Shown: positions 987 to 42,592 of the stretch, piece after piece
Layout: every line of letters begins with the position of its first letter
Position numbering within the stretch: position 1 is the stretch's first letter
NCBI RefSeq assembly: GCF_006345805.1
Contig: NC_043003.1
Location: 17,918,001-17,982,000, forward strand
Direction of reading: 5' to 3'
Length of the DNA: 64,000 bases
Origin: Octopus sinensis
Lineage: Eukaryota
Position numbers and translations under genes: made by a program
The notes under the pieces: generated by a model
Databases searched by the model: none
The model's input: the letters and a program-made list of their open reading frames with translations, nothing else
What the model was told of the DNA's origin: nothing

Positions 987-1097
987 GAAACTGTTGATCC
1001 AAACACAGTTATCGTTATTGTTGGTAACAAAACAGACTTGTATACAGATTACAGTGAGCTATCAAAACAGTACAAGGTGGCATCCAGACTTGCTCAG
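987..1097 (+). CDS. Large Rab GTPase (RASEF/Rab45, CRACR2A/Rab46, Rab44 group), third-last coding exon
   Basis: Polypyrimidine-ttccAG acceptor and GTAAGC donor, 111 nt, phase 0-0. Encodes ETVDPNTVIVIVGNKTDL...VASRLAQ with the G4 motif GNKxD. Upstream exons lie outside the window. Confidence 0.9.
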
Positions 1098-1914
1098 GTA
1101 AGCCAACTGCATCCGGTAGGATTTGAACTCTGAACATAAAGATCCTCAAACTAAATAAGACAAGAAATCCAATCTGACATCCCAGAATTCCTTTCATTTT
1201 ACTATTCCAGTTGGTGTACTGATGTTCTCTCTTCTTTCACTTGCTTTAGTCATTGAACTGCAGCCATGCTGGGGTGTCCCTTTTAAAGGGTTTTAGTTGA
1301 ACAAATTGACCCTGGAACTGATGTCTCTTTGTTAAGTCTGGCACTTGTTCTATCTGTTTCTTTTGCTGAACTACTCATTTATGAGGATGTGAACAAACCA
1401 ACACCGGTTATCAAGCAGTTGTAGTGTGTGTGGGACAAACACAGACACAAAGACGCACACATATATATGATATATTATATACATGAAACTTAAGAGTCTT
1501 GGTTTCATTTCTTCTCACTTATCATGGAGCATTGGGCCTTGCAAGACCTCTACCTAGCTTGTTTGCTCGGTGCATATCTGACATTATGAGCCTGTTCCAG
1601 GCCTAATCCCCTTCCATAGTCCTCAGCATAGTATTGACAGATCTGCCTCATCTGCTGAGCCCTCGCCTCTATCTTCCAATTGACAAAAACATGAAAATTC
1701 AAAAGAAAGGAAATTAGAGTTATGATTGAATGTACCAAAGTAATAGTTGATTTTCTGAAGGTGCATGGCTCAGTGGTTAGAGCGTCGAGCTTACGATCGT
1801 GAGGTTGTGAGTTTGAATCCCGGACCGGGCTGCATGTTGTATTCTTGAGCAGGACACTTTATTTCATGTTGCTCCAGTTCACTCAGCTGTAGAAATGAGT
1901 TGCGGCATTTCATT

Positions 1915-2312
1915 GGATTTCAAAAATCTGCCCATACTGTACCACCATTCAGCATATGCCGAATGGTGGTATAGTATGGGCAGATTTTTGAAATCCTACG
2001 AACCTTTAAACAAATATACTTTTTCAAGGAGATACGATAAACCTATTATAATGGGTGATACTATGTGTACTTTTTATTTTGTGATGTAATTTTTGGTCTA
2101 ACAATGTTTGCGGCTGAAGAGAGCTTTAAACTATCTTTTATATCAATAATACACTGATGTAATAACAGATTGTTTATAAAGCTTGAAACATGTGTACCAC
2201 GATATCCTTTGTGTTCTGTTTTTAATTTATATTTGATATATTCTCTCATCTGCCACTATCTGGCATATACAGGTGCTTACACTTATCAAGTATTCACTCT
2301 AAATTTACAATA
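1915..2312 (+). mobile_element. Penelope-like element 3-prime remnant with 5-prime inversion
   Basis: 82-bp palindrome at 1915-1996, then a degraded YS...QILKSYEPLN segment resembling the end of a PLE GIY-YIG domain, then the hammerhead motif, ending at (TA)n. Confidence 0.5.
2109..2201 (+). ncRNA. Type I hammerhead ribozyme motif (CUGAAGA core, long stem II, GUA site)
   Basis: tgcgg-CTGAAGA(2114-2120)-gagcttta...taaagctt-GAAA(2185-2188)-CATGTG-T-A-ccacg. One mismatch in stem I. Confidence 0.65.
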
Positions 2313-2350
<38 letters not shown>

Positions 2351-2589
2351 ACAGGCTTCTTTCAGTTTGCATCTACCAAATCCACTCACAAAGCTTTGGT
2401 TAGCCTGAAGCTATAGTAGAAGACATTTGCCCAAGGTGCCATGCAGTGGAACTGAACCTGGAACCATGTAGTTAGGAACCAAGCTTTTTACCACACAGCC
2501 ATGCCTGTGCCTATATGTTAAAATATACCTAAAATATACACTACTCTTTTATTTTGATTTTTGACTCTGAGTACTTTGTATTGTTGTAG

Positions 2590-2666
2590 GAAAATAATGC
2601 TCTATTTTATGAGACAAGTGCGAAAGATGGAAGCCGGGTGTTTGAAGCAATGCATGCTATGGCATG
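2590..2666 (+). CDS. Large Rab GTPase, penultimate coding exon
   Basis: ttgtAG acceptor and GTAAGT donor. Encodes ENNALFYETSAKDGSRVFEAMHAMA with the G5 motif ETSAK. Phases join the flanking exons in frame. Confidence 0.9.
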
Positions 2667-8950: not shown

Positions 8951-9832
8951 TTACCACACGGCCATTCTTGCACCCATATTATTTGACAATAATGTTCATG
9001 ATTCTGAAGAATTAATCTTCAATTTTGTGTCTAAGATGCCTCATGTATCAGTGGTTGCATATTGCTTTATAATATATGCCATAGAGCCTCCCAAAACTAG
9101 ACACCAGTATCTAAGCATTGTCCTAGCCTAATCAGGTTATTTATGAAGAAAACCAAACAATACCATAGTAAGCAATCCCCACAAATTATGAATCCACAAA
9201 TAAGCATAACAAATATGTGTGTACCCATCATCAGCTGCCAAAACGGACATCACTATAGTTAATCCTTCCGGGATAGAATTTTGAGGAAACAATTGTAAAT
9301 CAATGAAATAAAAGTCCTGCTCACTCCATGCTCGTATGTTATATATAGATATAGATATATTATATATATCTGTAAATGTAATATGTGACAATTATTCGGA
9401 ATATATATGTATATATTTATATGTATATATATATATATATTCATATGTGTATATATATACATGTATATATATATATATATCGCTAATTTAATTTATATAT
9501 ATATTATTTAATTTATATATATATACACACACACACACACATATATATATGTATATAAATTAGAAAAAAAACACCTTTTATCAATTCGACAATGAAATAG
9601 CAATGATATAATTAAATTATATCTCTCTCTTTTACTTGTTTCAGTCATGTGACTGTGGCCATGCTAGAGCACTGCCTTTAGTCGAGCAAATCAACCACAG
9701 GACTTATTCTTTGTAAGCCTAGTACTTATTCTATCAGTCTCTTTTGCTGAACTGCTAACTTATGGGGACGTAAACACACCAGCATTGGTTCTCAAACGAT
9801 GTTGGGGGACAAACACAGACACTCAAGCATAT

Positions 9833-13139: not shown

Positions 13140-13174
<35 letters not shown>

Positions 13175-13178
<4 letters not shown>

Positions 13179-13546
13179 TTTGCAAAGGTGTCATTAATTA
13201 ACTTTTCATGAATTATTTTTCTCATAAATTGTATCGAGATTATTTTTAGACTGGTGGCTGCTGTGATTTCAGTGCCAAACGAATCAGTTGCAGCACAGAC
13301 TTCAAAACGATGGGTTAGGAATCTCTAATCATGGTAACGCGTGCTGATGAAGCTAAGGCTTATTTTGCCAGTGCAGAAACCGGTCCACGTGAATCCAGAT
13401 ACTTAAATGTATGTTAGTAGATTGTCTTAACCTGATTTTGCTTTTGTTTGATTTCTGTAGTTATCATCAGTTTATTTTTGGCGATTTAATAAGAGTTTTG
13501 ACTGTTATTTCAAGCAGGTAGACATACTTACTATGTCCTTTGATTA

Positions 13547-13550
<4 letters not shown>
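13175..13550 (+). mobile_element. About 375-bp hammerhead-containing element between two (TA)n tracts (Penelope terminal repeat or retrozyme-like monomer)
   Basis: Non-microsatellite sequence bounded by (TA)n on both sides, with a central hammerhead and short imperfect inverted ends TTAATTTGCAAAGG and CCTTTGATTAA. Confidence 0.55.
13328..13400 (+). ncRNA. Type I hammerhead ribozyme motif, canonical core, GUC cleavage site
   Basis: cgcgtg-CTGATGA(13344-13350)-stem II-GAAA-CCGG-T-C-cacgtg. Stem I extends through a 3x3 internal loop. Stem III is the palindrome ACCGGT. Confidence 0.75.
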
Positions 13551-13580
<30 letters not shown>

Positions 13581-15382
13581 ATAGAAATAGTAAGACAACA
13601 AATGAATGAAAGAGACCTCGATATTATGTAAATACAGGAATTTATCTGTAATATAATTTGTGACGATTCGGTTACAACCGAATAATTGTCACATATTATA
13701 ATACAGATATATATATATGTATATATATATATGTATATATATATATGTGGATATATATATATATAACATGACTGTTTATGACAGCTTTCTTAATCTGTTT
13801 AAGTTATAGTAAATTATAATTCAACTTCTGTAGTGCACTTTCTGAAAATGTCTTTCAGTAATAAGCATTGATCCATTTAGTATTCAGATTACTTAATCAA
13901 ATGTAATGCCTTCACATTGTCTGAATTAATCATGCATTATCTTGTAGCTTTAACATTTCAATGATTTAAAATGACATTTGTAGGTTAGGGGATGAGAGAT
14001 CTTGCTAGTTTGAACATAAAACAGGTAGGATACTTTTGCTGGATATGGCCAGTTTAAATGTTGAAGGTTTAAAATTTAATTAAAGTACAAGTTGTATATT
14101 ATGCATTCTAAGGTCAGCAATTATCAAATCGCAAAACTGTACAGAAAAAAAAAATGTTTGTAAATATTATTTTTAAGATTGTTTTTTTTTTCTTTTTTTT
14201 TTGTGGTGACTGGGGAACTAAAAGTCTCAAACATGAATCAGTAAGATCTGCCTAATATGTCTTGAATATTTTTTTCATAATAAAAATGTTTACTTAAATG
14301 TCATTGAATTGTCTTTTTGTTAGAGTCTGTTTCATTGCAATTTCCTGTTTATGTAAAACAAATTTTTTAAGAATTTATATTGCCATTTTCAAAATCAAAG
14401 TGCCAAGTCCAAGATTAACTCTTCAGCATTCAGATTGCTCTGTTATTTGTAATGTTTATTTATTCACATTGTTTGGAATTATAGCTCCAAGATTTTGATG
14501 ATGTGAGTGTTTATTTTTAAAATGACATTGTAGGATAGGTATAAGAGGCTGGATTTGGACAGTTTAAATACTAAAGGGTAAGGTAAACTTGTGAATAAAG
14601 GAAATTTATTTGAATACTGATAGAATATAATTATGATATAGTTTCTTGTCTTCATAATACAGGATGTATTATTTATTTATTTTTATGTGCCCTTTTCAAG
14701 CCTAGCCAGGCTCATTGGCCCGGTTTCCCGGTTTCTTTAGCATATGTGTTCCCACCAGCTGAATGGGATGCCAGTCCATTGCAGCATTACTCAAGAAACA
14801 GGAACAGAGAGTGAGAGAAAGTTGGGGCAAAAGAGTACAACAGGGGTCACCACCACCCCCTGCCGGAGCCTCATGGAGCTTTAGGTGTTTTCACTCAATA
14901 AACTAAACACACGCAACGCCCGGTCTGGGAATCGAAACCGCAATCCTCCGACTGCGAGTCCGCTGCCCTAACCACTGGGCCATTGCGCCTCCACAATACA
15001 GGACATATATGCAACCAAAACATTGTGTTTCTTGAGTTTCATTCCTGTACCAAATGTGTTCAGCCACATGGTGGTGCTGGGGTATCTTTTATTTATATAT
15101 GATGGCTGTGTGACTAACATGTTTGCTTCCAACCCACAGGGTTTCAACGTCAGTTGCATTGCATAACACCTTGGGCACATGCCTTCTAATAGCCCTGGGC
15201 TAAACAAAGCCTTGTGAGTGGATACGGTACATAAAAACTGAAAGAAGCCCATCACATATATATTTATATATATATATATAATTTTAAAATAGGATAAAAT
15301 CTTTATAAGAATTTATCAAATAGTTAGCATGAAAAAAATTCATAAGAGAAAAAATCCACCAATTTTTTCACTTAAATGTATT

Positions 15383-23029: not shown

Positions 23030-23120
23030 TGTATGTGTGCATATGTATATATGTATGTATGTATTTATGACTCAAACAAAGTAGGTATACCAAAGTGCAA
23101 TAGAATTCTTTAGTGCTTAC

Positions 23121-23333
23121 CAATTCCACTGTCGTCCAATCTCATGTAACCATCAAGCAAAGAAGAGAAACCTGTGATTCCACCCATAGCAGCATAAGGA
23201 GTCGGTTGCCCAATGGGGTGGCCTCTTTCTTCTCTCTCCTTCTGCGTTTCAATCACTGTTTGATGCATATTTATTGGATAGCCGCAACCACAAGTTGTAG
23301 AGTTTTGAAAGCCAAAACACTTGCAACAAGTTT
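23121..23333 (-). CDS. FAM221A: FAM221A-like protein, exon 5
   Basis: aactAG and GTAAGC. TCCKCFGFQNSTTCGCG...HQTVIETQKEREERGHPIGQPTPYAAMGGITGFSSLLDGYMRLDDSGI, which contains the FAM221A hallmark PYAAMGGxTGFSSLxxGYMRLDDSG. Confidence 0.95.
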
Positions 23334-23544
23334 CTAGTTTGCAGAAGAGAATATAAAAAATAGAGAATAAATAAATCATGTTAATAAAATGTTATGCCAT
23401 TAACAAGATCGTTTTTAAATGGAGAGGTTGCCATTGATGTAACTATGAACAGTATGAAAATTTAAATAAAATTCCTCTTTTTTATAAAATGTGAAAAAAT
23501 GAAAAATGCAAACTAGAATTCTTAAATACAAAGTGAGGCGAGAG

Positions 23545-24327
23545 TACCATAAATCCTCGAGTATAATCTGCATTTTTTCCCCAAAATTTAAAGGTTAAAA
23601 TCCTTATTGTGTGTTTATGACTCAAACAAAGTAGATATACCAAAGCGCAATAGAATTCTTTAGAGCTTACCAGCTCCACTGTCGTCCAATCTCATGTAAC
23701 CATCAAGCAAAAAAGAGAAACCTGTGATTCCACCCATAGCAGCATATTCCCTCTCAAATTCATACACTTATCGCACCGCTCCTTCAGGTTTTCTAGGCCC
23801 TGTAAAAGAACTCAGAAGGTTGGGCCTCCAAACAGGCTTTTTACAATACCCTTAAAGCCAGAAACCTTCCAGTACCCTACGACGTTAAAAATGAAAAATA
23901 TTTTCTAAGCAATGTTCGAGTCTCTATTTGCTGTCTGGCAATGTTTATTCAGATGCATTTTGTGATGTTGGGCGCGAAAATACCTTAAGCTAAGCCTGAA
24001 AGCAATGAAGTCAAAAAGAATCATCCATAACTTGCAGTAAGAAACCTTTAATTAAATAAAAGTATTCAGTACACAGAATAACATGTAACAAAAACAATTT
24101 GCAAACATATTTACATTCCCATATAACAGTTAAGAACATCACCATTATTGTATTACGCATGTGCGAAGTGTTTGTTCGACTACGTGCTGCTGGCTTAATT
24201 AAGTACAACTCAAGTTAGAGAAGTGGTGCATATTATACACAAGGTTTAGGATTTTCAGAGGTACGTCCCCCTAAAAATTCCCTGCATATCATACTCAAGG
24301 GCAGACTATACTCAAGGATTTACGGTA
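23545..24327. mobile_element. Tc1/mariner-superfamily (pogo/Tigger-like) MITE containing a captured FAM221A exon fragment
   Basis: Ends TACCATAAATCCTCGAGTATAATCTGC and GCAGACTATACTCAAGGATTTACGGTA are inverted matches at 24/27 positions including the TA. Confidence 0.8.
23614..23746 (-). pseudogene. Partial duplicate of the FAM221A exon 5 3-prime end plus donor site
   Basis: 133-bp copy of 23064-23196 (offset 550). Reads YAAMGGITGFSFLLDGYMRLDDSGA followed by GTAAGC. Confidence 0.9.
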
Positions 24328-25237
24328 TGGCTGTGTGGTTAACAAGTTTGCCTAATAATCATATGGTCTCAGGTTCAGTCCCACTGTACAGCATTCTGAA
24401 CATGTGTTTTCTATGAATGCCTTGGGCCAAGCAAGTGGTAAGAAAGTGGTAAATGGAAACTGTATGGAAGCCAGTCATTTCTCCTCATTCTTTCACATTC
24501 CTTTCTTTCCCCTACTTTCTATCTACCCTTCCTGTTGCCAAGCCTCACCTACATCCAAGCAAGGTAATATTTACCCTCGACTAGACATGTTTTCCATAGA
24601 AGATTGGAAATGACCAGCTTTGCTTGTAGGATGATGATGATGATGCCCATTCACAACCATCATGTGTGTACCTATACAAAGGTACACGCATACACACACA
24701 TATACATACATACATGATGGTCTTCTTTCAGTTTTCATTTTCCAAATCCACTCACAAGGCTTTGGTCTACCTGGGGTTATTGTAGAAATTATCTGCTCAA
24801 GTTGCTATGCAGTGAGACAGCATGGTTGGGAAACACAGCATAGTTGGGAAACAAGCTTCTCCACTACACAGCTAAATATGAACGTATTTTATATATATAT
24901 ACATACATTATATATATATATATATATATCTACGTGATCACCGTGACCGACCAGGCTATCAGATGTTGCTACACATCGCTGGTCACAATGCGCTTCGCAT
25001 TGTTTTAGCCTTCAAATGACGCCACCCCGCTGGCTAAGCGAGCAGGCCAACAGAAGAAAGAGTGAGAGAAAGTTGCGGCGAAAGAGTACAACAGAGATCG
25101 CCACCACCCCCTGCCGGAGCCTCGTGGAGCTATAGGTGTTTTCGCTCAATAAACACTCACAACACCTGGTCTGGGAATCAAAACCATGATCCTACAACCA
25201 CGAGTCCGCTGCCCTAACCACTGGGCCATTGCGCCTC

Positions 25238-25289
<52 letters not shown>

Positions 25290-26104
25290 TATCCGCTCTA
25301 CTATAGGCACAAGGTCTGAAATTTTGGAGGAAGGGACTAGTCAATTACATTGACCCCAGTGTTTCATTAGTATTTAATTTACTGACCCTGAAAGGATGAA
25401 AGGCAAAGTCGACCTTGGTAGAATTTGAACTCAGAACATTAAGACAGACGAAGTGCTGCTAAAATAATACATATATATATATATTTGTGAGAGATGTAAG
25501 CAATTAAATTAACTGTAGTACTTAAGTGCCACTTGATTTAATGACCCCTGAAAGAAGAAAGGTAACGGTCATTGACCTCAGGGAAATTTAGATTCAGAAT
25601 TTAAAGGGACATAACCCAATAAAACAAGGCTTTTTTTTTTTGCTTTATTCAGCCCACTTCAGTGAATTTGAATCTTCTGCTCTGTTGAAGAATAATTAAT
25701 TAGCACAATCATTAATGCTATGTAATAAACGTGTTTAGGAAGGATGTGCTGTGTATGTGTGTGTTTGTGTATGTATGTAGTTGTGTATGCATGTACATAT
25801 ATGTATGTAGGTCTGTATGCTTGCGCAGATGTATGTGTGTATACATATACACAGATACCTGCATGTGTATGTGTGTGTGTGTGTAGATGCAGGTGTGTTT
25901 ATTCACAGGTGCATTTGAGTGTTTCAGAAGTTTGCTTCATAACTACAGGGTTCTAAGTTCAGTTCTACTGTGTGGTAATTTGGTCAAGTGCTTTATACTG
26001 TAGCCCCAGGCCAACTAAAGCCTTATGAATGAATTTGGAAGCTGAAAAAGACCATAGTACATATGTACATACATACATACATACCAACATACTTACTTAC
26101 TTAC

Positions 26105-26135
<31 letters not shown>

Positions 26136-28174
26136 CAAACATACATAAATTGTTTGTTCCTTCTCAAGCCATGACTGGCTCATAAGGGCCAGTTTCCAGG
26201 TTTCCTTGGCATATAGGTTCCCCACCTGGACGGGACGCCGGTACGTCGCAGGTGAGCTGCAAGATGTAAGAGTGAGAGAAAGTTGTGACGAAAGAGTCAA
26301 CAGAAGTCTGCCAGAGCCACGTAGAGCTTAGGTGTTTCGCTCATAAACACACACATTGCCCGGTCTGAGATTCAAACCCGTGAGTCCGATGCACTAACCA
26401 CTAGGCCATGTGCCTCCACACACACACACACATACATACATACATGTAACACACTGCATAAATACCGATCTTGAGAAATTAGTCTTCTCGAAACCAGAAT
26501 GGAGAAAGCTGATCCAAGCCAACACTGAGACTGTAGCAAACTAGAACTTTCCAGAGGTTTGTCATTTAAGTATATGTGAACATGCTTACAAACCACATGG
26601 CTCCGGGTTCAGTCCCACTCTGTGGCACCGTGGGCAAATGTCTTCTACTATAGCCTCGGGCTGACCAAAGCCTTGTGAGTGGATTTGATAGACAGAAAGA
26701 AGCCTGTCGTATATATGTATGATCTTCACCATTCGCGGTGCCTTCAAACCCAAAATCGCCATTATTAGCCCCAACCAAACTTCCTTCTTCCCCAACTCAG
26801 ACTTCCGGTCAATCTACTTATATGCACCTTCTCTCCCCACTCCTATCATTTCTTCTCCGATTCACAGCGATGTCTATAGCAAGCTAAGATTTCTCCCTTC
26901 TTTTTCATACATACATACATTTGCCTACCGTTTAAATGTTTTGAACTTATACCACCAACGTGCTTTGCTTTCCTTTTTCTTTCTCTATGCTACCCCAAAA
27001 AACATCGCCATTTTCCGCCCGTTTCTCTAAAGTACCTTCAATCCTTTAATTCGATCTTCACCATTCACAGCGCCCGCCCTTTCCCACCCCCACCACCAAT
27101 ACCGGTGAACACTGTTCTCACTGTTCACACCATCTACACCGGATATGCCCTCCCCCACCACCATTATGTGTGTCTCTCCCTCCTACCCCTCCACCTCACA
27201 TGCTTTCACTGTGTATTACCCCCCCCCCACCACCACCAAGACAAGCAGCTAGCGCCGCAGCTCATCAACCGCCCCACCTATCCTACGTTTCCTCCTGTTA
27301 TTGAATCTGTCACTGCCTCAACCGGCTATCTCCTTCCAGTCCCCTCCCCCACTCGTGATGTCCTACGTTTTATTTCCTACGAACCTGCATCAACCCTAGC
27401 TGTCATCATTCCTCCTTACCCCAACCCTCCCCACTGGGGCTTCCCTATATTACCTGCACCCCCAAAAAGCACCATCTGAACGTGGCCGATGCCAGCGCCG
27501 CCTTGGCTGGCACGTTAAAAGCTCGAACCGATCGTGACCGATGCCAGACCCACCCTGGCACCTGTGCAGGTGGCACGTAAAAAGCACCCACTACACTCGC
27601 GGAGTGGTTGGCGTTAGGAAGGGCATCCAGCTGTAGAAACTCTGCCAGATCAGACTGGAGCCTGGTGCAGCCTCCTGGCTTCCCAGACCACGGTCAAACC
27701 GTCCAACCCGTGCTAGCACGGAAAACGGACGTTGAACGATGATGATGATGATGATGATGATATGTATGTGTGCATATATATTTGTGTGTGTGTGTTTGTC
27801 CCCTCAACATCGCTTGACAACCGATGGTGGTGTGTTTACGTCCCTGTAACTTAGCAGTTCGGCAAAAGAGACCGATAGAATAAGTACTAGACTTCCAAAG
27901 AATAAGTCCTGGGGTTGATTTGCTCGACTAAAGGTGGTGCTCCAGCATGGCCACATCAAATGACTGAAACAAGTAAAAGAGTAAAAGCAAGAGTAAAGAG
28001 TATACAAAAAGGCCCAACTTGAACAGAATAGAAGTGATATTGAGAATTAAAGGGGTTGAAGAAAAGTATTACAAATTTAAACCCTTTCATTCTTGATATC
28101 ATTTCTATTCTGTGTAAATTGGCTCCTTTATGTATATAATATTATATATACATTTTTTGTATCTCATGTATCTA

Positions 28175-28510
28175 AGGCGCATGGCTCAGTGGTTAGAGCA
28201 TCGAGCTTACGATCGTGAGGTTGTGAGCTCGAATCCCGGACTGGGCTGCATGTTGTGTTCTTGAGCAAGACACTTTATTTCACGTTGCTCCAGTTCACTC
28301 AGCTGTAGAAATGAGTTGCGACGTCACTGGTGCTAAGCTGTATCGACCTTTGTCTTTCCCTTGGACAACACTGGTGGCGTGGAGAGGGGAGGCCGGTATG
28401 CATGGGCGACTGCTAGCCTTCCATAAACAACCTTGCCCAGACTTGTGCCTGGGAGGGTAACTTTCTAGGTGCAAACCCATGGTCACTCATGACCGAAGGG
28501 GGTCTTTTAC
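28175..28510 (+). mobile_element. tRNA-derived SINE, second family; other copies near 1759, 7100, 19845, 22365, 34030
   Basis: GGCGCATGGCTCAGTGGTTAGAGC A-box, GCTCGAATCCC B-box and TTGAGCAAGACACTT core. Confidence 0.85.
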
Positions 28511-28773
28511 TGATCTAACTTGCTTATCCCTACATTTACTTATGCATATACTCTTTACTATCTCTTTTACTCTTTTACTTGTTTCAGTCATTTGACTGCG
28601 GCCATGCTGGAGCACCGCCTTTAGCTGAGCAAATCGACCCTCGGACATATTCTTTGTAAGCCTAGTACTTATTCTATCAGACTCTTTTGCTGAACCGGTA
28701 GGTTACGGGGACGTAAACACACCAGCATCAGTTGTCAGGTGATGTTGGTGGGGACAAACACAGACACACAAAC

Positions 28774-28804
<31 letters not shown>

Positions 28805-29094
28805 CATACATATATATATATATACATATATATAATATATATATATATATATAATATATATATAATATATATATATACACACACATATTTACACATACAT
28901 ACGATGGGCTTCTGTCAGTTTCCGTCTACTAAATCCTCTCACAGGGCTTTGGTTGGCCCGAGGCTATAGTAGAAGAAACTTGCCCAAGGTGCCATACAGT
29001 GGGACTGAATCTGGAAGCATGTGATTGGTAAGCAAGCTACTTATCACACAGCCACTGATGCGCCTATATATATATATACATATATAATATATAT

Positions 29095-29128
<34 letters not shown>

Positions 29129-29682
29129 GCAGTATATTGTATATATGTTATCCCATGGAGGGTTGCATTTACAACCCCTATCTCAATTTGTGTATATATA
29201 TATATATATATTATATATATATATATATATATCATCATCATCATCATCATAATTTAACGTCCGCTTTCCTTGCTAGCATGGGTTGGATGATTTGACCAAG
29301 GACTGGCGAACCAGATGGCTGCGCCAGGCTCCAATCTGATCTGGCAGAGTTTCTACAGCTGGATGCCCTTCCTAATGTCAACCACTCCATGAGTGTAGTG
29401 GGTGCTTTTTACGTGCCACCCGCACAGGTACCAGACAGAGCTGGCAAACGGCCACGAACGGATGGTGCTTTTACGTGCCACCGGCACGGAGGCCAGCCAG
29501 GGCTGGCAACGGACACGAGCGGATGGTGCTTTTACGTGCCACCGGCACGGGGGCCAGACGAGGCTGGCAATGGACACGAACGGATGGTGCTTTTACGTGC
29601 CACCGGCACAGGGGCCAGGCGAGGCTGGCAGCGGACACGAACGGATGGTGCTTTTACGTGCCACCGGCACGGAGGCCAGACG

Positions 29683-29725
<43 letters not shown>

Positions 29726-30555
29726 TATGAATGCCTTTCCTCCCTTGGACACAAAGACCGGTTGAGGCAAGCGAAGTCGATATAGAACCTCATCCGACGA
29801 CAGACACCCATCCCAACCCCCCATGCTTGCGAAGACATGTTGGGGCAAGCGAAATCGAAACCGAATTGAACCAGCCAGGATCCCTGGCCTGGTGGTACGT
29901 AAAAAGCACTATCCGACTCGGGGCCGTGGCACGTAAAATACTCCAATGCGACCGTACGACAGGCACCCATGCCAACCCCCTTGCTTGTGAAGACATGTTG
30001 GGGCAAGCGAAATCGAAATCGAATTGAACCAGCCAGGATCCCTGGTCTGGTGGTACGTAAAGCACTATCCGACTCGTGGCCGTGGCACGTAAAATACTCC
30101 AATGCGACCGTACGACAGGCACCCTTGCCAACCCCCTTTGCTTGTGAAGACATGTTGGGGCAAGCGAAATCGAATCGAATTGAACCAGCCAGGATCCCTG
30201 GTCTGGTGGTACGTAAAAAGCACTATCCGACTCGTGGCCGATGCCAGCACCGCCTCGACTGGCTTCCGTGCCGGTGGCACATAAAATACACCAATCTGAC
30301 CGTGGCCGTTGCCAGCCCCGCCTGGCACCTGTACAGGTGGCACGTAAAAAGCACCCACTACACTCACGGAGTGGTTGGCGTTAGGAAGGGCATCCAGCTG
30401 TAGAAACATTGCCAAATTAGACTGGAGCCTGGTGCAGCCTTCTGGCTTCCCAGAACCCCGGTCGAACCGTCCAACCCATGCTAGCATGGAGAACGGACGT
30501 TAAACGACGATGATGATGATGATGATATATGTATATATATATATATATATGTATG

Positions 30556-30591
<36 letters not shown>

Positions 30592-30781
30592 ATATATATG
30601 TATATATATGTATATAGACATTTACACACACATGTATACATACACACATACACACAACAACATTCTGGACTGTAGATGATGATGGTGGTGGTGATGGTGG
30701 TGGTGATGATGATGATGATGATGATTAGTGTACACATGGACATGTAGAATTTCATTTTTGTTTTTGTTGTTTTGTCTTTAC

Positions 30782-30972
30782 CTTTCTTACACTTGAATGG
30801 ATGGAGTGTTGAATGATCTTCAACTGGATGTTTGCAATGGCACCTGAGAAAATTGCTTCCAGTAGAATAAACATAATGGTATGACTGACATAAGCAACCA
30901 TTAACACGACATGGAAGCATGATGGGTCTTGTAGTTGGAATGGTCTCAAAATCAGTCTTGTGTTGCTTATAT
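30782..30972 (-). CDS. FAM221A: FAM221A-like protein, exon 4 (Cys/His-rich)
   Basis: ttccAG and GTAAAG. YKQHKTDFETIPTTRPIMLPCRVNGCLCQSYHYVYSTGSNFLRCHCKHPVEDHSTLHPFKCKK. Confidence 0.93.
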
Positions 30973-31052
30973 CTGGAAGTAAGATAAAAATAGAGAGATA
31001 CTTTATAATGGAAGGGAATGATGAATTAAATAAATACAGCTGTGTAATAAAA

Positions 31053-31211
31053 ACAGGAGTGGCTGTGTGGTAAGTAGCTTGCTAACCAGCCACATGGTTC
31101 TGGGTTCAGTCCCACTGCGTGGCATCTTGGGCAAATGTCTTCTGCTATAGCCTCAGGCCGACCAAAGCCTTGTAAGTGGATTTGGTAGACGGAAACTGAA
31201 AGAAGCCCGTC

Positions 31212-31255
<44 letters not shown>

Positions 31256-31477
31256 ATATGTTTGTGTGTCTGTGTTTGTCCCCTCCAACATTGTTTGACA
31301 ACCGATGCTGGTGTGTTTACGTCCGTGTCACTTAGCGGTTTGGCAAAAAGAGACCGATAGAATAAGTACTGGGCTTACAAGAGAATAAGTTCTGGGGTCG
31401 ATTTGCTCGACTAAAGGCGGTGCTCCAGCATGGCCGCAGTCAAATGACTGAAACAAGTAAAAGAGTAAAAGAGTAAA
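31053..31477 (+). mobile_element. Abundant tRNA-derived SINE, plus-strand copy; others near 43543, 55830, 56462
   Basis: Full head-to-tail match to the 8555 family in the opposite orientation. Confidence 0.9.
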
Positions 31478-32276
31478 GCCGTATTACATATACTTATTAT
31501 ACTTATTATACTTCCCAATTGCAAGGATGGGGCAAAAGCTAAGTTGAGGTTTGGAGGGTTTGAACTCTAGAAGGTAAAAAGACAGCACTTAAATACTGCG
31601 AGATCCTTTAACCAAATACACAGCTCTTGATCATATTTGCCAACTTGTAGAGCTGGCAAATATCAGATATCCCCTATCTACAAAGAAGTGCTGAAGAGTT
31701 CTTGGCTTCGGGTAAAAGAAAATACAGGAAGATCAGTTAATTATGATTTTATTCAACATATTCCCCTCTCAGATTCACACACTTATTACTCTTACTCTTA
31801 CTCTTTTACTCTTTTACTTGTTTCAGTCATTTGACTACGGCCATACTGGAGCACCGCCTTTAGTCGAGCAAATCGACCCCGGGACTTATTCTTTGTAAGG
31901 CCAGTACTTATTCTATCGATCTCTTTTGCCGAACCGCTAAGTGACGGGGACATAAACATATTAGCCCTAGGGGGACAAACACAGACACACAAACATATAC
32001 ACACACACTTATATATATATACATATATACGACAGGCTTCTTTCAGTTTCCGCCTACCAAATCCACTCACAAGGCATTGGTCGGCCCGGGGCTATAGCAG
32101 AAGACACTTGCCCAAGATGCCACGCAATGGGACTGAACCCAGAACCATGTGGTTGGTTAGCAAGCTACTTACCACACAGCCACTCCTGCGCCTATTGCAG
32201 TGGTCCTTCAATTTTTTTTAAGCCCTGTAAAAGAACTCAGAACTTTGAATCTCCAACCAGACCTTTCATAATACCT

Positions 32277-32505
32277 TTAACCCTTTAGTGTTCAGAATAC
32301 TCTGTTAAATGTAATGCTTTTTTTAAAAAAATGTTTTGAATTAATCATGCATTACCTTGTAGCTTTGAGGTTTCAATGATGTGATTGTTTATTTTTAGAA
32401 TGACATTGTAGGTTAGGTGTGAGAGGCTAGATATGGCCAGTTTGAATATAAAATATGTGGAATATATTGGGCCGGATTTGGCCAATTTAAACACTAAAGG
32501 GTTAA
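32277..32505. mobile_element. piggyBac-type MITE, second family; degraded copies near 13870, 14420, 39560
   Basis: TTAA-CCCTTTAGTGTT...AACACTAAAGGG-TTAA, nested inside a mariner MITE. Confidence 0.8.
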
Positions 32506-32761
32506 AGCAGGACCTTTTCAGCACACCCTTGTATACACTCTTTACTTTTTAACTCTTTTACTTGTTTCAGTCATTTGACTGTGGCCATGCTGGAGCACCA
32601 CCTTTAGTCGAGGAAATCGAACCCAAGACTTATTCTTTGTAAGCCTAGTACTTATTCTATCGGTCACTTTTGCCGAACCACTAAGTTACGGGGATGTAAA
32701 CACACCAGCTTTGGTTGCCAAGCGATGTTGGGATGACAAACACAGACACACAAACACATAC

Positions 32762-32812
<51 letters not shown>

Positions 32813-34536
32813 AAACACATGCATACATGTATAATACATATATGAGGGGTTGCTGATGTTAATTATGATCTTGTTCAACATACTCCCTCTCAAATTCACA
32901 CACTTATCGCACCGGTCCTTCAGGTTTTCTAGGCCCTGTAAAAGAACTCAGAAGGTTGGGCCTCCAAACAGGTTTTTTACAATCCCCTTAAAGCCAGAAA
33001 CTTTCCAGTACCCCACTATATTAAACTGTTTTCTTCTAAGACTGTTAAAATAAGTGCCAGGCATAAAAAAAAAAATGAGTACTGGGGTTACCCTCCAAGG
33101 TGGTGCCCCACCATGGCTGCAGTCCAAGGACTCAAACAAGTGAATGATAAAAGATAACAGTATTTCAAATTTGAGGAGGTAGAGTTTAATATTTGTTTTC
33201 TTTTTGTTGGGTCTGGAGAAAGGGGCAGTGCCCACAGCCCTTGTTGGCCATTTAGACTGATTACATTGATTCCTTCAATGTTCCTCTTGAACCTTTCATA
33301 GGTCAACAGCTGTAGGGAAGACAAGCATTTAAGGAATTTTAGAGGGCTGAGGTTCACAATCATTCCAAGTGTTTGTAGCCCATTGGACAGCCACATACAT
33401 CCCTAGGGACTGATATTAACCATTTTGCCAACCCCTATTCTGGTCAAGGACGAGATGATCAAGATGGTGTGTGTGTCTGTTCACAATTTCACCTAAAGTA
33501 ATTAGTGAGAGCATTGTATATATTACCAAGCCATGCTGACTTTCATTGGTGATAGTTGGCTGTACTCTGTGTTTGTCAAAAGTGAATGGTAGTTTTGATG
33601 GCATTTTTTAACCATCCTTATAGCCTGTAAAAAATTATGACCGACACAGGCCAATGCAGTTAACCCTTTCGTTACTGAATTCATTTTGAGATGCTCTGTG
33701 TTTCTTTCAATTACTTTAAATATAACAAAGAATTTTGTAAAATAACTTAGTTATCATTCAGCTTGTGTTAGGAACATAAATTGTGACTAAGGTTTGGTGG
33801 AAGATTTTAATTCAAAACTTATGAAAACAGGACATTTGTACTCAGAGCCAGAGCCGGTTTCAGCTGGGTTGGTAATGAAAGGGTTAATGTCTAGTTTGAA
33901 GTGCTGCAAGTTAAAAGACAAACATGATTGGAAAAAATAAAATGAAAAAAGAAAGAAAATAAATAAAAGAAGTTACGTAGTGGAAATAGATTTGGGCGAC
34001 AACAGGTTACTCTTTCTAGAAGTGTATATAGGTGGTTAGAGCATCAAGCCCACAATCATGAGGTAATGAGTTCAGTTCCAGGACTGGGCTGTGTGCTGTG
34101 TTCTTGAGCAAGACACTTTATCTTAGGTTCTCCAGTTCACTCAGCTGTAGAAATGAGTTGTGACATCACTAATGCCTAGCTGTATCAACCTTAGCCTTTC
34201 CCTTGGATAACATTGGTGGCATGAAGAAGGGCAGCTGGTAGGCACAGGGGGTTGCTGGTCTTCCATAAAAACAACCTTGCCCAGACTTGTGCCTGAGAAG
34301 GTAACTTTCTAGGTTCAATCCCATGGTCTTTCATGACCAAAGGAGGTCCATTACCCTTTACCCTTTACCCTATATAGAGTTACAGGAGGGTTTAGATCTA
34401 CCAATAGTGAATAGGGATTTGTGCCATTAGCATAGTGAACCAGTGAGGTCAAAAGCTAAGTTCAGTGGGAAGAAGAACAGGGTTCACATGTAAGCAGAAA
34501 CAAAATCATCAAAGAAGATATTGAACAAATAAATAC

Positions 34537-34631
34537 CTATGTTGGCAAAAACACATCGTCTCAGGCCCAACCAGTTTACAATCCATGTTATTTGGATTCA
34601 CCCAACAGGTGAACAGTCGATTTTTCATACG
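34537..34631 (-). CDS. FAM221A: FAM221A-like protein, exon 3
   Basis: ttacAG and GTATTT. RMKNRLFTCWVNPNNMDCKLVGPETMCFCQH(R). Confidence 0.93.
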
Positions 34632-34824
34632 CTGTAATTGTAAAGAAAACAGATAAAACTGAATTACTGAATCACAGGGAGAGAAAGATCAGAGATCATC
34701 TATTATCCTTATGAGGGAGCCAATCATGCAATTAGACAATTAATCCATATGGCCACTTGCATGACTTACTAAATTTTTTTGTCAGCTTTCTAAATTTTCA
34801 ATTTACAGAAAGACAATAATAATG

Positions 34825-35256
34825 ATAATAATGAAATTATTGTATACAGTGCTCAGATGCACCACAACTTGTCAAAAGTGTGTATAAAGCATATGCAATA
34901 ACGTACAAATGTCTGGGAAATGAACAGTATATGAGTTAGATACATGCTTGCGTGTGTATGGAGGGGAGAAAATCAGGTGTAGTGTTGGCGAATCTCAGGA
35001 AGCATGGAAGTTTTGAAGGATGCAGTGCTCCGACAACTAACAACTGATGCCTGCAGATTGTTCCATACTTCAGCAACTCTTAGCGTGAAAAAATGTTTCT
35101 GAAAGTCATGGGAGCTGTGCTGTTTCTGACTTTGTAAACATGTCCACGGGTGTTAGACAGGTAGAGTTTGAAAAGGTGCACAGAGTTATTGTTTGTAAGA
35201 TAGTTAATAATTTTATGGGTGTCTGCCAAGTCAGCTGCCAGACGTCGGAGTTTCAA
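34825..35256 (-). mobile_element. CR1-type LINE 3-prime fragment
   Basis: LKLRRLAADLADTHKIIN...SNTRGHVYKV, the same element as at 60984. Confidence 0.85.
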
Positions 35257-35284
35257 TAATGCACCCAATTTATATATATGTATG

Positions 35285-35637
35285 TTTTGTAATATGCAGA
35301 CAAGAAAGTGATATTTTGAACACAGTGTAGCCATGAAAACAACAGAAAAATTAGATATTTTACCCTTATAAGATGGCAAAAGTTTGTTTACAATATATGT
35401 TGTTGCATTCCGAAAAAACTATGACATTTAGAAGTTAATTTGAAGAGATTGTTGTCAGCAAGCAGTTTAGCTTAATGGTAGAGTACTTGTTCAGTATCTG
35501 AAGGGTGCGGGTTTGAGTCCCATGGCTGTCTGCTGGCAACTTTTTCCATCTTCTAAGGGTAAACTATGCAATCTTTCTGCTGTTTTCATGGCTATACTGT
35601 GTTTGAAATATTACTTTCTTGTCAATATATTACAAGA
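35285..35637. mobile_element. Fold-back element enclosing a tRNA-like segment
   Basis: About 100-bp inverted arms (35285-35384 and 35538-35637). Segment 35461-35530 has A-box TAGCTTAATGG and B-box GGTTTGAGTCC. Confidence 0.65.
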
Positions 35638-35762
35638 CAAATTCAATGCTCTGTGTGTGTGCGTGTGCATATATATATATACCTTCAAAATGCGACCATA
35701 TGTGTTTTGTTGGTAATTTTTTTCCTCCATCTTCCCTTCCTTGGATCTTTCCTTTTTCTATG

Positions 35763-35795
35763 TTTCTGACGAAGAGCTCCGCTCAAAACGTTAAA
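35763..35795 (+). ncRNA. Degenerate minimal hammerhead motif (G12>A)
   Basis: ttt-CTGACGA-a-gagc-tcc-gctc-AAAA-CG-T-T-aaa. GAAA has become AAAA at a CpG. Confidence 0.5.
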
Positions 35796-36138
35796 TCCTC
35801 CTTCTTTCTTTCCTTTCCTGAGCGTCCAATAACACTATACTTGTTCCACGTCCTCGAGATGTTGTGTTTTCTCTTTGTGTTATCATGTTTGGATTAACTA
35901 TATATATATATACAGTGGGGGGAAATAAATATTCGTACATATCAAAATTCTTTATATATCTAATTTCTAATGAACATAAATGGGATATACCAATACTATA
36001 TTTGCATACACATGCGTAAACTAAGAATAGGCAAAAGAAACTAATAAATTATAGTTACTAAGGAATTTATATACAATTATAAATATTTAGGGGTGAAAAA
36101 AGTATTCGTACAGAACATAAATAACAGATAATTCTGAT

Positions 36139-37163
36139 TTAATACTTCATAGCATAACCATTATTCAGTTCCACTTCAACCAATCTCTTCTTGTAGTTCT
36201 TAATCAATGACTTGCATGTTTCTTTAGGAATTTTTTCCCATTCTTCTTGACAAATTTTCTTCAAATCTAGAATGCACATTGGGGCTCTTGAATGAATTTT
36301 TATTTTCAAATAACGCCACAAATTTTCAATGGGATTCAAGTCAGGTGACTCGCTTGGCCATTCTAATAATTTTATATTGTGATCAACAATCCATTTTTTG
36401 GTAGACTTTGCCATGTGCTTAGGGTCGTTATCCTGTTGTAAAACCCACCCTTCACAAAGCCGGAGCTTTTTTACAGAGTCCCATAAATTATTGTTCAAAA
36501 TATTTTGGTACATCTCTGCATTCATTCTACCATCTATCACATGTAAATTGCCAGTACCATTTGCAGAGAAACCCCCCCCCCACCATGATGTTGCCACCTC
36601 CAAACTTTATGGTAGGAATTGTGTTTTTCGGCGAATAGGCAGTACCATCTTTTCTCGAAACATGGCTATGTGAATTTCTTCCAAACAATTCAATTTTCAA
36701 CTCGTCTGTACATAGAACATTTTCCCAGAATGTATCAGGTTTATCTTTATGTTCATAAACAAATTTTAAATTGGCATCTCTATGCCTTTTAGTCAACAGC
36801 GGAGTTTTTCTAGGAGAGCGTGACTTCAGTTTATTCCTATGAAGTTCATTGCTGATTGTTCATAGGGTAACTCTAGTCCCTGAAGCTAACAAATCTTCTT
36901 GCAGCTCCTTTCTAGTGAACATTGCATTTTTTTTCAATTCTTCACTTCATTTTTCTTAAAGATCTAGGGGAAATCTTGCGTGGTGCACCGGATCTTATTC
37001 TGTTTTCAACAGTTCCCGATTTTTTATATCTTTGAATAAATGAAGATATGGTAGAAAATGGAATACAAGGGATCTCTGATATTTTCCTGTAACTTTTACC
37101 TGCTTTCCACTGTTCAATAATTAAGTTTTTCACTGTATTTGTGAGTTCTTTACTTTTCGCCAT
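36139..37163 (-). pseudogene. Frameshifted Tc1 transposase
   Basis: Three ORF pieces: HTH MAKSKEL...GKSYRKIS, WENVLCTDELKIELFG, and QQDNDPKH...SPDLNPIENLW with 34 residues between D and E. Confidence 0.93.
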
Positions 37164-37427
37164 TATTACGATACTGCTTTATGCTGTCTCAGTGCTGAAT
37201 GAAGAAGCTAGCGTTTTGACACTTAAAAATGACAACTGATAAGATTATTGGAACAAACGAGAAAGTTCTAGTAAAAAAAAATTATTTTAACAGTATTTTG
37301 TGGCTTAGAAAATCATAAATTTATTCTGTATGAATACTTTTTTCACCCCTAAATATTTATGATTGTATATAAATTCCTTAGTTATTATAATTTATTAGTT
37401 TCTTTTGCATATTCTTAGTTTATGCAT

Positions 37428-39116
37428 TGGTTGGCATCCTTTCTGTCTTGGGAGACAATGGAGTTGCACATAAAGTAGTGTAGTCCGGCTTTTATATTTC
37501 ATGTCCTGATACATTTCCTGCTGTGGCTGTGTAGTCCTATCCTGGACAAACACTCCCTCTGGCAGGTACCGCAAATGTAGTGAAGACTGTTCCTGGCTGG
37601 TTGTAATGCCATAGTCTCTTGTTGACATCTCTTCTTTTCTTTCCATTTCTCCTCTCTCTCTCTGTCACTCCTTTGTATTCCCTCTTTTACGGTACGTCGC
37701 CATTCTCCACGGTTGCCGGCAACTGCTTCCCAACCGCTAATATTGATGTTGCAGGCCTTCATGTCCCTTTTGCAAACATCCTTGTAACGTAAGGTCGGTC
37801 TACCCACAGACCTAGTACCCCTAGCAAGCTCTCCATAGAGTATGTCCTTGGGGATTCTGCCATCTTTCATACAGCTAACATGCCCAAGCCATCTCATACG
37901 TCTTTGTGTGAGGAGTGCAAACATGCTTGGCATTCCTGCTTGCCTGAGGACATCTTTGTTGGGGATATGATTCTGCCATTTGATGCGGAGGATTTTTCGG
38001 AGGCAGCGCAGGTGAAAGATGTTTAGGCGACGCTCTTGGCGTGTGTATAGCGTCCAGGTCTCACTTCCATACAGTAGAGTGCTGAGTACACATGCCTGGT
38101 AGATCTTCATTTTCGTGGTCTTGGTCAGCTTATTGTTGTCCCAAGCCCGTTTGGAGAGTTGGGCCATCGCAGCAGCTGCCTTGCCAATGCGTATATTGAG
38201 CTCAGCATCAAGGGATAGGTTGTAGGTGACGGTAGAACCCAGATAGGTAAACTTCTCCACCTCTTGTAATCTGTGGTCTCCAATATGTATGTTTGGGATG
38301 TCCGATGTAGCCTGGCCCATGATGTTGGTCTTCTTAAGGCTGATAGCTAAGCCAAAGTCGTTACATGCTTGCTCAAAACAGTTAATGAGCCTTTGGAGGG
38401 CTTCTTCTGTGTATGTTACCAGAGTGGCATCATCAGCAAATAACATCTCCTTGATCAGGACGTTTCTGGTTTTGGTCTTGGCACGCAGGTGCGAGAGATT
38501 GAACAGTTTCCCGTCACTTCTACTGTGCAGAAACACTCCATCATCTGATGTCTGAAAGGCATGTGAAAGTAAGAGCGAGAAGAAGATGCCAAACAATGTA
38601 GGAGCGAGGACACAACCTTGCTTTACCCCGTTTTTTATTTGGAAGGCGGCTGATGTTGAACCGTTGTGCTGTATGGTGCCTTGCATGTCATCATGGAAAG
38701 ACTTGATGATCCTCAGCAGCTTTGATGGACATCCGATTTTTTAGAGCAGGATGAAGAGGCCTGTTCTGCTTACCGAGTCAAAAGCCTTTGTTAGATCAAT
38801 GAAGGCCATATATAATGGCATTTTCTGCTCTCTGGACTTCTCCTGAAGTTGGCGTATGGAGAATATCATATCGATAGTTGATCTGCTTCTTCTAAAGCCA
38901 CACTGCGATTCCGGATAGATTCGAGAAGCAAGTAGTTGTAGCCTGGCCAGGATAACGCGGGCAAAGGTCTTTCCAACAGTGCTTAGAAGGGATATACCAT
39001 GGTAATTGTTACAATCACCACGGTCACCTTTGTTTTTGTAAAGTGTAATGATGTTAGCATCCCGCATATCCTGAGGGACTGTACCCTCTTCCCAGTACTG
39101 ACACAGAAGCTCATGA
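37428..39116 (-). mobile_element. 5-prime-truncated RTE-clade LINE (reverse transcriptase)
   Basis: RT motifs PESQCGFR, FIDLTKAFDSV, GVKQGCVLAP, MLFADD, FTYLGS and a C-terminal CxxC...HxxxC. One in-frame stop at 38741-38743. Perfect 11-bp TSD AGTTTATGCAT (37417-37427 and 39117-39127). Confidence 0.95.
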
Positions 39117-40465: not shown

Positions 40466-40544
<79 letters not shown>

Positions 40545-41931: not shown

Positions 41932-42250
41932 AGTGGTTCCCAAACTTTTTCGAGATGCCGTCCCTTTGGCACTCGAACCACATTTCTAGCGCCCCTCACC
42001 ACCACCGCTACCCCCCCCCGTCACAACCACCACCACATCCATCACTACAAATGTAGACCACTTTTTATAGCAAATTCAAATCAACAGTATTTCACAAATA
42101 AAACTTAACTTAACCCATTGTTTTTGGGCCGGGAGGATAACATCCTTTTGGCCACCCTGTTATTGCCCCACGTTTCTTCAACGCCCCTCTTGCTCTTTCG
42201 CCGCCTACAGAGCAGGTGGGTGGGCAGTACCGCCCACTTTGAGAACTACT
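41932..42250. mobile_element. hAT-like MITE
   Basis: AGTGGTTCCCAAACT and ACTTTGAGAACTACT termini, typical of Charlie-type hAT elements. Confidence 0.6.
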
Positions 42251-42513
42251 ATTATTATTATTATTATTATTATTATTGACTGAGGGGGCCAGTCAATTAG
42301 ATCAACTCCAGTATGCAACCGGTACTTAATTTATCAACCCAGAGAAGATGAAATGCAAAGTCGACCTTGGCGGAATTTGAACCCAGAATGTAAAGACAGA
42401 CGAAATAGTGCTAAGCTTTACGCCCAGCTTGCTAACATTTCTGCCAGCTCGCTGCAGTGAATTAAATATAAATTAATGAAAATAAAGAAATAAATAAAAC
42501 TGTTATTACCTAC

Positions 42514-42592
42514 CAGAGGCAGCACATTCTGTTTATATTTTTCATATTCCTCGGGAGTCAATAGCTTACCATAGTCATCCTCGCCTACAACA
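42514..42592 (-). CDS. FAM221A: FAM221A-like protein, exon 2
   Basis: ttctccAG and GTAGGT. VVGEDDYGKLLTPEEYEKYKQNVLPL (human: IVGEDDGGKLFTPEEYEEYKRKVLPL). Confidence 0.93.

What the first reader, a model, noticed from the sequence alone, without database searches (positions are those of the whole stretch)
13175..13550. Best-preserved hammerhead, in an about 375-nt retrozyme-sized unit inserted in (TA)n
Seen: CUGAUGA, GAAA and the favoured GUC triplet (cleavage after C13385). Stem I is CGCGUG/CACGUG, extended past a UAA/AAU internal loop by UGG/CCA and AUC/GAU. Stem II is GC-(3x3 loop)-GGC/GCC with a U-rich loop, and is weak, with unpaired A residues at its base. Stem III is the palindrome ACCGGU. 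Established: a stem I internal loop docking on loop II is the type I hammerhead architecture, and metazoan non-LTR retrozymes are a few hundred nt long and yield circular RNAs. Inference: a solo PLE terminal repeat or retrozyme monomer targeting TA microsatellites.
Basis: partly seen in the sequence, partly recalled or inferred. Interest (0 to 1): 0.75.

Follow-up and report, generated by a model that had tools for sequence, protein, structure and literature searches.

The report
Penelope-mobilised hammerhead repeat, 472-base unit
This is one truncated copy of a protein-free, 472-base mobile repeat that carries a hammerhead ribozyme motif (predicted to self-cleave) and sits at hundreds of TA-repeat sites with the same end pattern as the genome's Penelope-like retrotransposons, which likely copy it, so it offers a testable case of how animal ribozyme repeats spread.

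Summary
The hammerhead is real. Every element named is at the stated place, and its helices covary across 82 copies. The 375-nt unit is not the monomer. The family unit is 472 nt and circularly permuted. This copy holds 354 nt of it plus a 26-nt inverted stub, so it cannot yield a circle by itself. The family is dispersed: at least 271 exact 3'-motif hits against 0 in the control. No tandem array was found. Of 157 segments, 116 end at one of three fixed sites, and 95 of those run into (TA)n. In 27 of 28 inverted insertions one arm carries a roughly 125-nt extension and the other does not. The genome's autonomous Neptune-type elements show the same pattern in 10 of 10 cases. No segment continues into a coding frame, 25 exceed one unit, and none starts at the cleavage site. 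Verdict: a non-autonomous Penelope-type element that works like a retrozyme. Cleavage, a circular RNA and the helper element are untested or not found. The scan noted a similar TA-inserted, permuted repeat (tRNA instead of ribozyme) in another genome.

The parts
13143..13175 (.). (TA)n target, left side
13174..13199 (-). Inverted 26-nt stub of the unit (unit positions 454 to 472, then 1 to 7), ending at fixed site S3 and running into (TA)n
   Evidence: L001 1495-1520
13196..13550 (+). Main 5'-truncated segment, unit positions 1-354 of 472, ending at fixed site S1 and running into (TA)n
13328..13343 (+). Hammerhead stem I, 5' strand, with extension (ATC, bulged A, TGG, TAA loop, CGCGTG)
   Evidence: covariation
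13344..13350 (+). Catalytic core CUGAUGA (C3 to A9)
   Evidence: an 11-position core is intact in 46 of 54 copies
13351..13375 (+). Stem II: unpaired A on each side, GC/GC, 3x3 loop UAA/AGU, GGC/GCC, 7-nt loop
   Evidence: A-A in 76 of 82; pair 10.3 is CG 48 / GC 23; pair 10.9 is CG 39 / TA 20
13376..13385 (+). GAAA core, palindrome ACCGGU (13379-84) and GUC triplet; predicted cleavage after 13385
   Evidence: self-duplex of 6 bp at -9.7 kcal/mol
13386..13400 (+). Stem I, 3' strand (CACGTG, AAT, CCA, GAT)
13521..13550 (+). Conserved 3' hairpin and U-rich end just before site S1 (likely reverse-transcription start region)
   Evidence: 271 exact genome matches against 0 in the control; hairpin
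13550..13578 (.). (TA)n target, right side

Best explanation
This is a 5'-truncated copy of a non-coding 472-nt repeat unit that carries a type I hammerhead motif and is dispersed in (TA)n sites, and it is likely copied in trans by the reverse transcriptase-endonuclease of a Neptune-type Penelope-like element. Shown: unit length, circular permutation, three fixed 3' ends, TA targets, inverted 5' arms with an extension on one arm only, and no coding frame. Inferred: the borrowed enzyme nicks both strands of a (TA)n tract. It starts reverse transcription at two internal sites of the RNA, S1/S2 on one strand and S3 about 125 nt further 3' on the other, with a long hairpin (unit 399-465) between them. 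The two truncated cDNAs are joined head to head. The scissile bond is intact in the template. Inferred, about even odds: the ribozyme cleaves as a dimer through the ACCGGU palindrome, and the monomer is ligated into a 472-nt circle that lets the enzyme copy more than one unit. The window copy is a dead end for that cycle, having one ribozyme and lacking the last 115 nt.
For: Copy number: 47 matches among 40 scored of 1211 candidates, 87-94% identical over most of the unit; 271 vs 0; 181 vs 12. Period 472. The same circular order holds in subfamilies about 80% and 70% identical. Of 157 segments of 40 nt or more in 109 loci, 3' ends fall at S1 59, S2 16, S3 41 and elsewhere 41; the three sites cover 13.8% of the circle and were defined from these data. 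TA runs follow 95 of 116 fixed ends, 10 of 41 other ends and 6% of window positions. Of 38 inverted pairs, 24 have both ends assignable: 23 pair S3 with S1/S2, 1 is S3+S3, none is S1+S1. A further 4 of 4 agree. Control: 10 of 10 two-ended insertions of an autonomous Neptune-type family carry the tail on one arm only, in (TA)n (38 loci examined). That one-sided tail plus inverted copy is the published Penelope hallmark (PMC8557442 passages), and two internal start sites were shown in vitro (PMC11167929). 25 of 157 segments exceed one unit and 6 span two cleavage sites. In 30 segments chosen by the 3' motif alone, 13 read through the cleavage site, 17 stop before it and 0 start at it. Intact Neptune-type frames of 775-811 aa are present.
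Against: No autonomous element sharing this sequence was found: no homology to 30 GIY-YIG loci plus 19 longer element loci. The helper is therefore unidentified. The extension (about 125 nt) is far longer than the 30-40 bp published tail. Core conservation beyond neutral is not significant once CpG and subfamily columns are removed (7 of 429 vs 349 of 11271, p=0.086). The circular fold is only mildly stable (z -2.0, 3 of 60 shuffles as good). The hammerhead fold (-11.0) is not the lowest-energy fold (-18.7), and stem II has an extra A before G12. In vitro, a Penelope enzyme did not need ribozyme cleavage. No cleavage or circular RNA was observed here.
Confidence: 0.8

Rival explanations
1. Same borrowed enzyme, but the template is a linear, uncleaved transcript of a partial-tandem copy (1.3 to 2 units). 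The hammerhead is a slow or vestigial passenger from an ancestral Penelope terminal repeat and no circle is made. This competes only with the circle step of the best explanation.
For: No copy starts at the cleavage site, which fits an uncleaved template as well as a circle. Unprocessed RNA was the dominant substrate in vitro for a lizard Poseidon. Eight of nine Xenopus retrozyme dimers did not cleave. Core selection here is inconclusive.
Against: Compensatory changes keep stem II across subfamilies. The unit has kept one circular order and a length of about 470-480 nt over about 30% divergence, which needs repeated regeneration of copies longer than one unit.
Confidence: 0.4
2. The copies are solo terminal repeats left by 5'-truncated insertions of an autonomous Penelope-like element that I did not sample.
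For: Hammerheads with a palindromic stem III and an extra base after A9 are typical of Penelope terminal repeats. One autonomous family here shares GAAACCGGT. Only part of the family was seen (109 loci; the searches score the best 40 candidates).
Against: Segments up to 971 nt wrap back into the unit instead of entering an endonuclease frame. Element fragments next to copies are cut off by (TA)n or lie in the opposite orientation. No homology to sampled terminal repeats.
Confidence: 0.1
3. A classical tandem non-LTR retrozyme whose master arrays are collapsed or missing in this assembly. The dispersed copies are its offspring.
For: Size, low GC and type I ribozyme fit. Monomer offspring are known. 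The same assembly does hold a different 95-nt hammerhead-like array, so arrays can exist in this genome.
Against: Only 1 of 23 hits to the two-core pattern belongs to this family, and it is a 1.4-unit copy. The longest segment is about 2 units. That a 95-nt array was assembled shows arrays are not always lost.
Confidence: 0.12
4. A chance motif or an ordinary host exon.
For: No Rfam hit; local fold z -1.1.
Against: Hundreds of dispersed copies, covariation and fixed ends. It lies between Rab-like exons near 990-2650 (+) and a FAM221 gene whose recognised exons lie at 23113-42690 (-).
Confidence: 0.01

Closest known systems
Metazoan non-LTR retrozymes (Cervera and de la Pena 2020, PMC7229834; Li, Clavereau and Pollet 2026, 10.64898/2026.07.22.740005)
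   Same: Non-coding, low-GC unit of a few hundred bases with one type I hammerhead. Stem III is one pair plus a palindromic tetraloop, as in axolotl HHR_Amex1, which cleaves well only as a dimer. Coexists with Penelope-like elements.
   Different: No tandem arrays found (at most about 2 units). Dispersed, permuted, truncated copies with inverted arms. 472 nt is just above the 150-450 bp of the 2020 paper, though inside the 51-972 bp of the 2026 preprint. Circular RNA not shown. No sister terminal repeat found.
Neptune-clade Penelope-like elements and their terminal repeats (Craig et al. 2021, PMC8557442; Cervera and De la Pena 2014, PMC4209133; Frangieh et al. 2024, PMC11167929)
   Same: (TA)n targets, 5' truncation, inverted 5' copy, extension at one end only, hammerhead about 150-170 nt upstream of the 3' end, extra base after A9, palindromic stem III.
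   Different: No ORF. Extension of about 125 nt around a long hairpin instead of 30-40 bp. C3-G8 core with a long, extended stem I, whereas two of the genome's autonomous families use the U3-A8 core.
Non-autonomous Chlamys elements such as MRC1 (passage in PMC8557442)
   Same: ORF-less elements moved by Penelope-like machinery.
   Different: Those resemble their autonomous partners at the 3' end and belong to a clade mostly without hammerheads. No such resemblance was found here.

Membership tests
Type I hammerhead ribozyme | Core CUGANGA, GAAA and UH around three helices, open at stem I | tested here: met
   note the unpaired A on both sides of stem II (76 of 82)
Type I hammerhead ribozyme | Helices supported by compensatory changes | tested here: met
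   the copies are related and part of the set was picked by the core pattern
Type I hammerhead ribozyme | Loop I-loop II tertiary contact | not testable with these tools
   needs probing or a structure
Type I hammerhead ribozyme | Self-cleavage after C17 | not testable with these tools
   no assay; only contigs were available for RNA runs
Non-LTR retrozyme | Non-coding unit of a few hundred bases with one type I hammerhead | tested here: met
   472 nt; no RT or endonuclease frame in any copy
Non-LTR retrozyme | Tandem arrays with a complete hammerhead in at least two consecutive units | tested here: not met
   1 locus with two exact core ends, its first ribozyme incomplete; longest segment about 2 units at 70% identity; exact-match search in one assembly
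Non-LTR retrozyme | Expressed as abundant circular RNA | not testable with these tools
Non-LTR retrozyme | Stable, highly self-paired circular fold | tested here: inconclusive
   62% paired, z -2.0, 3 of 60 shuffles as good
Non-autonomous Penelope-like element | Fixed 3' ends, variable 5' truncation, inverted 5' copy | tested here: met
Non-autonomous Penelope-like element | [quoted passage not shown] | tested here: met
   27 of 28; control 10 of 10; longer than the published 30-40 bp
Non-autonomous Penelope-like element | Microsatellite target shared with autonomous elements of the genome | tested here: met
Non-autonomous Penelope-like element | Sequence similarity to the terminal repeat of an autonomous family | tested here: inconclusive
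   none among 30 GIY-YIG loci and 19 longer element loci; 5029 candidates existed and 150 were scored
Autonomous Penelope-like element | RT plus GIY-YIG ORF joined to the terminal repeat | tested here: not met

The most novel reading that the evidence does not exclude
An array-free retrozyme life cycle. A 472-nt ribozyme-made RNA circle is copied rolling-circle fashion by a Neptune enzyme to which it shows no sequence kinship. A dimeric enzyme starts at two sites either side of a long hairpin, one per target strand. The one-sided tail would then be a genomic fingerprint that proves which machinery moves animal retrozymes and maps both start sites.
Probability: 0.3. Interest if true: 0.65.

Novelty: new variant of a known kind. 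Interest (0 to 1): 0.45.

Why it matters
Which enzyme spreads animal hammerhead repeats has been argued from co-occurrence and terminal-repeat phylogeny. Here the insertion scars themselves match those of autonomous Neptune-type elements in the same genome, with an internal control. The fixed ends predict exact reverse-transcription start sites on a short RNA, and intact young helper frames exist. That makes both the helper question and the role of the ribozyme directly testable in vitro. The window copy itself is an old, ordinary family member.

Tried and rejected
Rfam: no hit at gathering threshold over the window; only a spurious AT-rich match at E 4.4. Other copies or Penelope coding remnants in the window: none. 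A 375-nt monomer: rejected. Tandem arrays: not found. Autonomous partner: element fragments beside copies in L053, L190/L253, L044 and L074 are separate insertions, cut off by (TA)n or reversed. Alignment of the unit to the downstream ends of 30 GIY-YIG loci scored no better than shuffles. Selection on the core: inconclusive. An apparent cluster of 5' ends just upstream of the cleavage site was dropped, since the 161-200 bin holds 9 of 157. Expression: no RNA holder listed. Contigs of four runs only guessed to be RNA carry pieces of the family but cannot show transcription, ends or circles; the 'goes back' joints equal the 472 period and also exist in genomic copies. The empty-site test on DNA runs gave no result, so target-site duplication and polymorphism stay open. 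Earlier notes of the scan: nothing by sequence or for this genome. Rows dropped: 10 of 167 segments under 40 nt; 14 of 38 inverted pairs with an unassigned end, one duplicate locus and three loci without two assignable ends; 14 of 96 hammerhead-like stretches left out of alignment A1 (truncated, other families or unrelated).

Full report
Observation. Rfam does not recognise it and its local fold is unremarkable (z -1.1). The support comes from the family. The core pattern occurs 181 times in the genome against 12 for the reversed control. On 82 aligned copies the proposed pairs hold in 86.4% of cells, with 76 two-sided changes; 0 of 500 shuffles reach that, and slid controls give 17-37. Read without alignment from the core anchors, stem II swaps CG (48) for GC (23) at one pair and CG (39) for TA (20) at another, and keeps A opposite A at its base in 76 of 82. 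The copies are related, and about half were picked by the core pattern, so these counts are not independent events.

What the unit is. A search of the own genome gave 47 matches from 40 scored of 1211 candidates, on many contigs. A 25-nt motif near the 3' end occurs exactly 271 times against 0 in the control, a lower bound on copy number. Other copies extend on both sides with the same roughly 115-nt sequence, which the window copy lacks. L003 holds a whole unit and gives a period of 472 nt. Copies are circular permutations of that unit. The window copy is positions 1-354 plus a 26-nt inverted stub at its left end. Subfamilies at about 90%, 80% and 70% identity keep the same circular order and about the same length, so the unit is an old non-coding lineage. 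The window copy differs from the young majority at 20 of 354 positions.

Insertion anatomy. I mapped 167 distinct segments in 109 loci and kept the 157 of at least 40 nt. Their 3' ends fall at three sites, defined from these data: S1 (348-358) 59, S2 (367-379) 16, S3 (6-46 of the next unit) 41, and elsewhere 41. The sites cover 13.8% of the circle. A TA run follows 95 of the 116 fixed ends, 10 of the other 41, and 6% of window positions. The 5' ends are scattered. Thirty-eight adjacent pairs form head-to-head inversions. Of the 24 with both ends assignable, 23 pair S3 with S1 or S2, one pairs S3 with S3, and none pairs S1 with S1. Four of four further assignable pairs agree; 27 of 28 has p about 1e-7 against even odds. 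One arm thus carries an extension of about 125 nt, which contains a long hairpin (399-465). As a control I read the ends of an autonomous family found beside one copy. In 10 of 10 insertions with both arms visible (38 loci examined), a tail of about 35-40 nt is on one arm only and both ends run into a microsatellite. This is the published Penelope hallmark (PMC8557442, passages). In vitro, the tail equals the stretch between two internal reverse-transcription starts, and the enzyme nicks and extends both target strands at AT-rich sites (PMC11167929, parts 1-2 of 4). The autonomous families have a C-terminal GIY-YIG domain and a cysteine linker. I call them Neptune-type on that architecture; no tree was built.

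Not a solo terminal repeat, not a tandem array. No segment continues into coding sequence. Twenty-five of 157 exceed one unit, up to 971 nt, and wrap back into the unit. Coding fragments near some copies are separated by (TA)n or reversed. The unit shows no homology to 30 GIY-YIG loci or 19 longer element loci, though only 150 of 5029 candidates were scored. A search for two exact core ends one unit apart gave 23 hits, of which one, a 1.4-unit copy, belongs to this family. Six segments span two cleavage sites. The tandem-array criterion for non-LTR retrozymes (PMC7229834, parts 2-4 of 6; 10.64898/2026.07.22.740005, parts 1-3 of 5, supplements not seen) is therefore not met in this assembly.

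Role of the ribozyme. Stem III can form only one pair plus a CCGG loop in a monomer, but a 6-bp duplex between two copies (-9.7 kcal/mol). That is the dimer-dependent design described for axolotl and Penelope hammerheads (PMC4209133 parts 1-2 of 4). No 5' end lies at the cleavage site: 0 of 157 overall, and 0 of 30 segments chosen by the 3' motif alone, of which 13 read through it. The template therefore had the scissile bond intact. That fits a religated circle or an uncleaved linear transcript equally well. For the circle: the covariation, the copies longer than one unit and the long-kept circular order. Against: core conservation is not significant after controls (p=0.086), the circular fold is only mildly stable, the hammerhead fold is 7.7 kcal/mol above the lowest-energy fold, and cleavage was dispensable in vitro for a lizard element. 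RNA data here could not decide. The window copy cannot release a monomer, and a circle junction at 13385/13386 would be indistinguishable from genomic sequence.

Context. The copy lies between Rab-like exons (motifs recalled) and a FAM221 gene on the other strand. Nothing suggests a host function. The repeat landscape looked cephalopod-like to me from recall; no call established the organism.

Novelty. Retrozymes as non-autonomous Penelope derivatives are already proposed. Nine full-text searches returned no paper that, in the parts I read, describes this family or the one-sided tail in a hammerhead repeat. A recent octopus repeat annotation has no mention of ribozymes in its main text (PMC13282606, passages). 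The library lacks most subscription journals, and Repbase and Dfam were not available. Lunse et al. 2017 was seen only as a reference title. One unchecked note of this scan describes a similar TA-inserted permuted repeat with a tRNA in another genome; it came after my reading was formed.

Verdict. Observation confirmed, interpretation partly supported. It is a non-autonomous Penelope-type element that works like a retrozyme but fails the tandem criterion: a new variant of a known kind. Confidence is 0.8 in mobilisation by Penelope machinery and about even for a circular intermediate. Interest 0.45.

Noticed in passing
window 13580-13712: A second short TA-flanked repeat with a main piece and an inverted piece. 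Related copies lie near five other loci of this family (L007, L014, L066, L210, L250) and at window 9379-9399. It looks like another Penelope-type truncated insertion; no source element was identified.
   Followed up: partly
L274 742-2820 on its reverse strand (G000:C27 about 18.913-18.915 Mb); also L282, L283: A Penelope-like terminal repeat, right after a GIY-YIG frame, contains a 95-nt unit repeated 5 to 22 times. Each unit has a minimal hammerhead-like motif with the U3-A8 core and the same ACCGGU palindrome; stem I is unclear.
   Followed up: partly
L121, L202, L128 (G000 C1, C3, C8): Young Neptune-type families with open 781, 811 and 775 aa RT-endonuclease frames. Two have an overlapping upstream frame of about 400-480 aa with no Pfam match for the one scanned, and carry U3-A8 hammerhead variants in their terminal repeats.
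   Followed up: partly
L265 1300-2150: A different short hammerhead-bearing, TA-inserted element with a perfect 7-bp stem I, inverted pieces and the same unpaired A on both sides of stem II.
   Followed up: no
window 13335-13337/13392-13394 and 13354-13356/13370-13372: In the family majority, the internal loops of stem I and stem II carry the same UAA/AGU motif.
   Followed up: no
window 23113-42690 (-), probably to 18544; 990-2650 (+): Exons of a FAM221 gene (Pfam PF14753). Also two Rab-like small GTPase exons, recognised by recalled NKxD and ETSAK motifs with no Pfam hit. The element lies between the two genes.
   Followed up: partly
window 37502-39175 (-), 36142-36859 (-): A broken LINE reverse transcriptase (RVT_1) and a Tc1-like transposase remnant (DDE_3).
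   Followed up: no
L235-L264: Many short copies stop at unit positions 282-302, 55-75 nt from the S1 end, suggesting a frequent early stop of reverse transcription.
   Followed up: no
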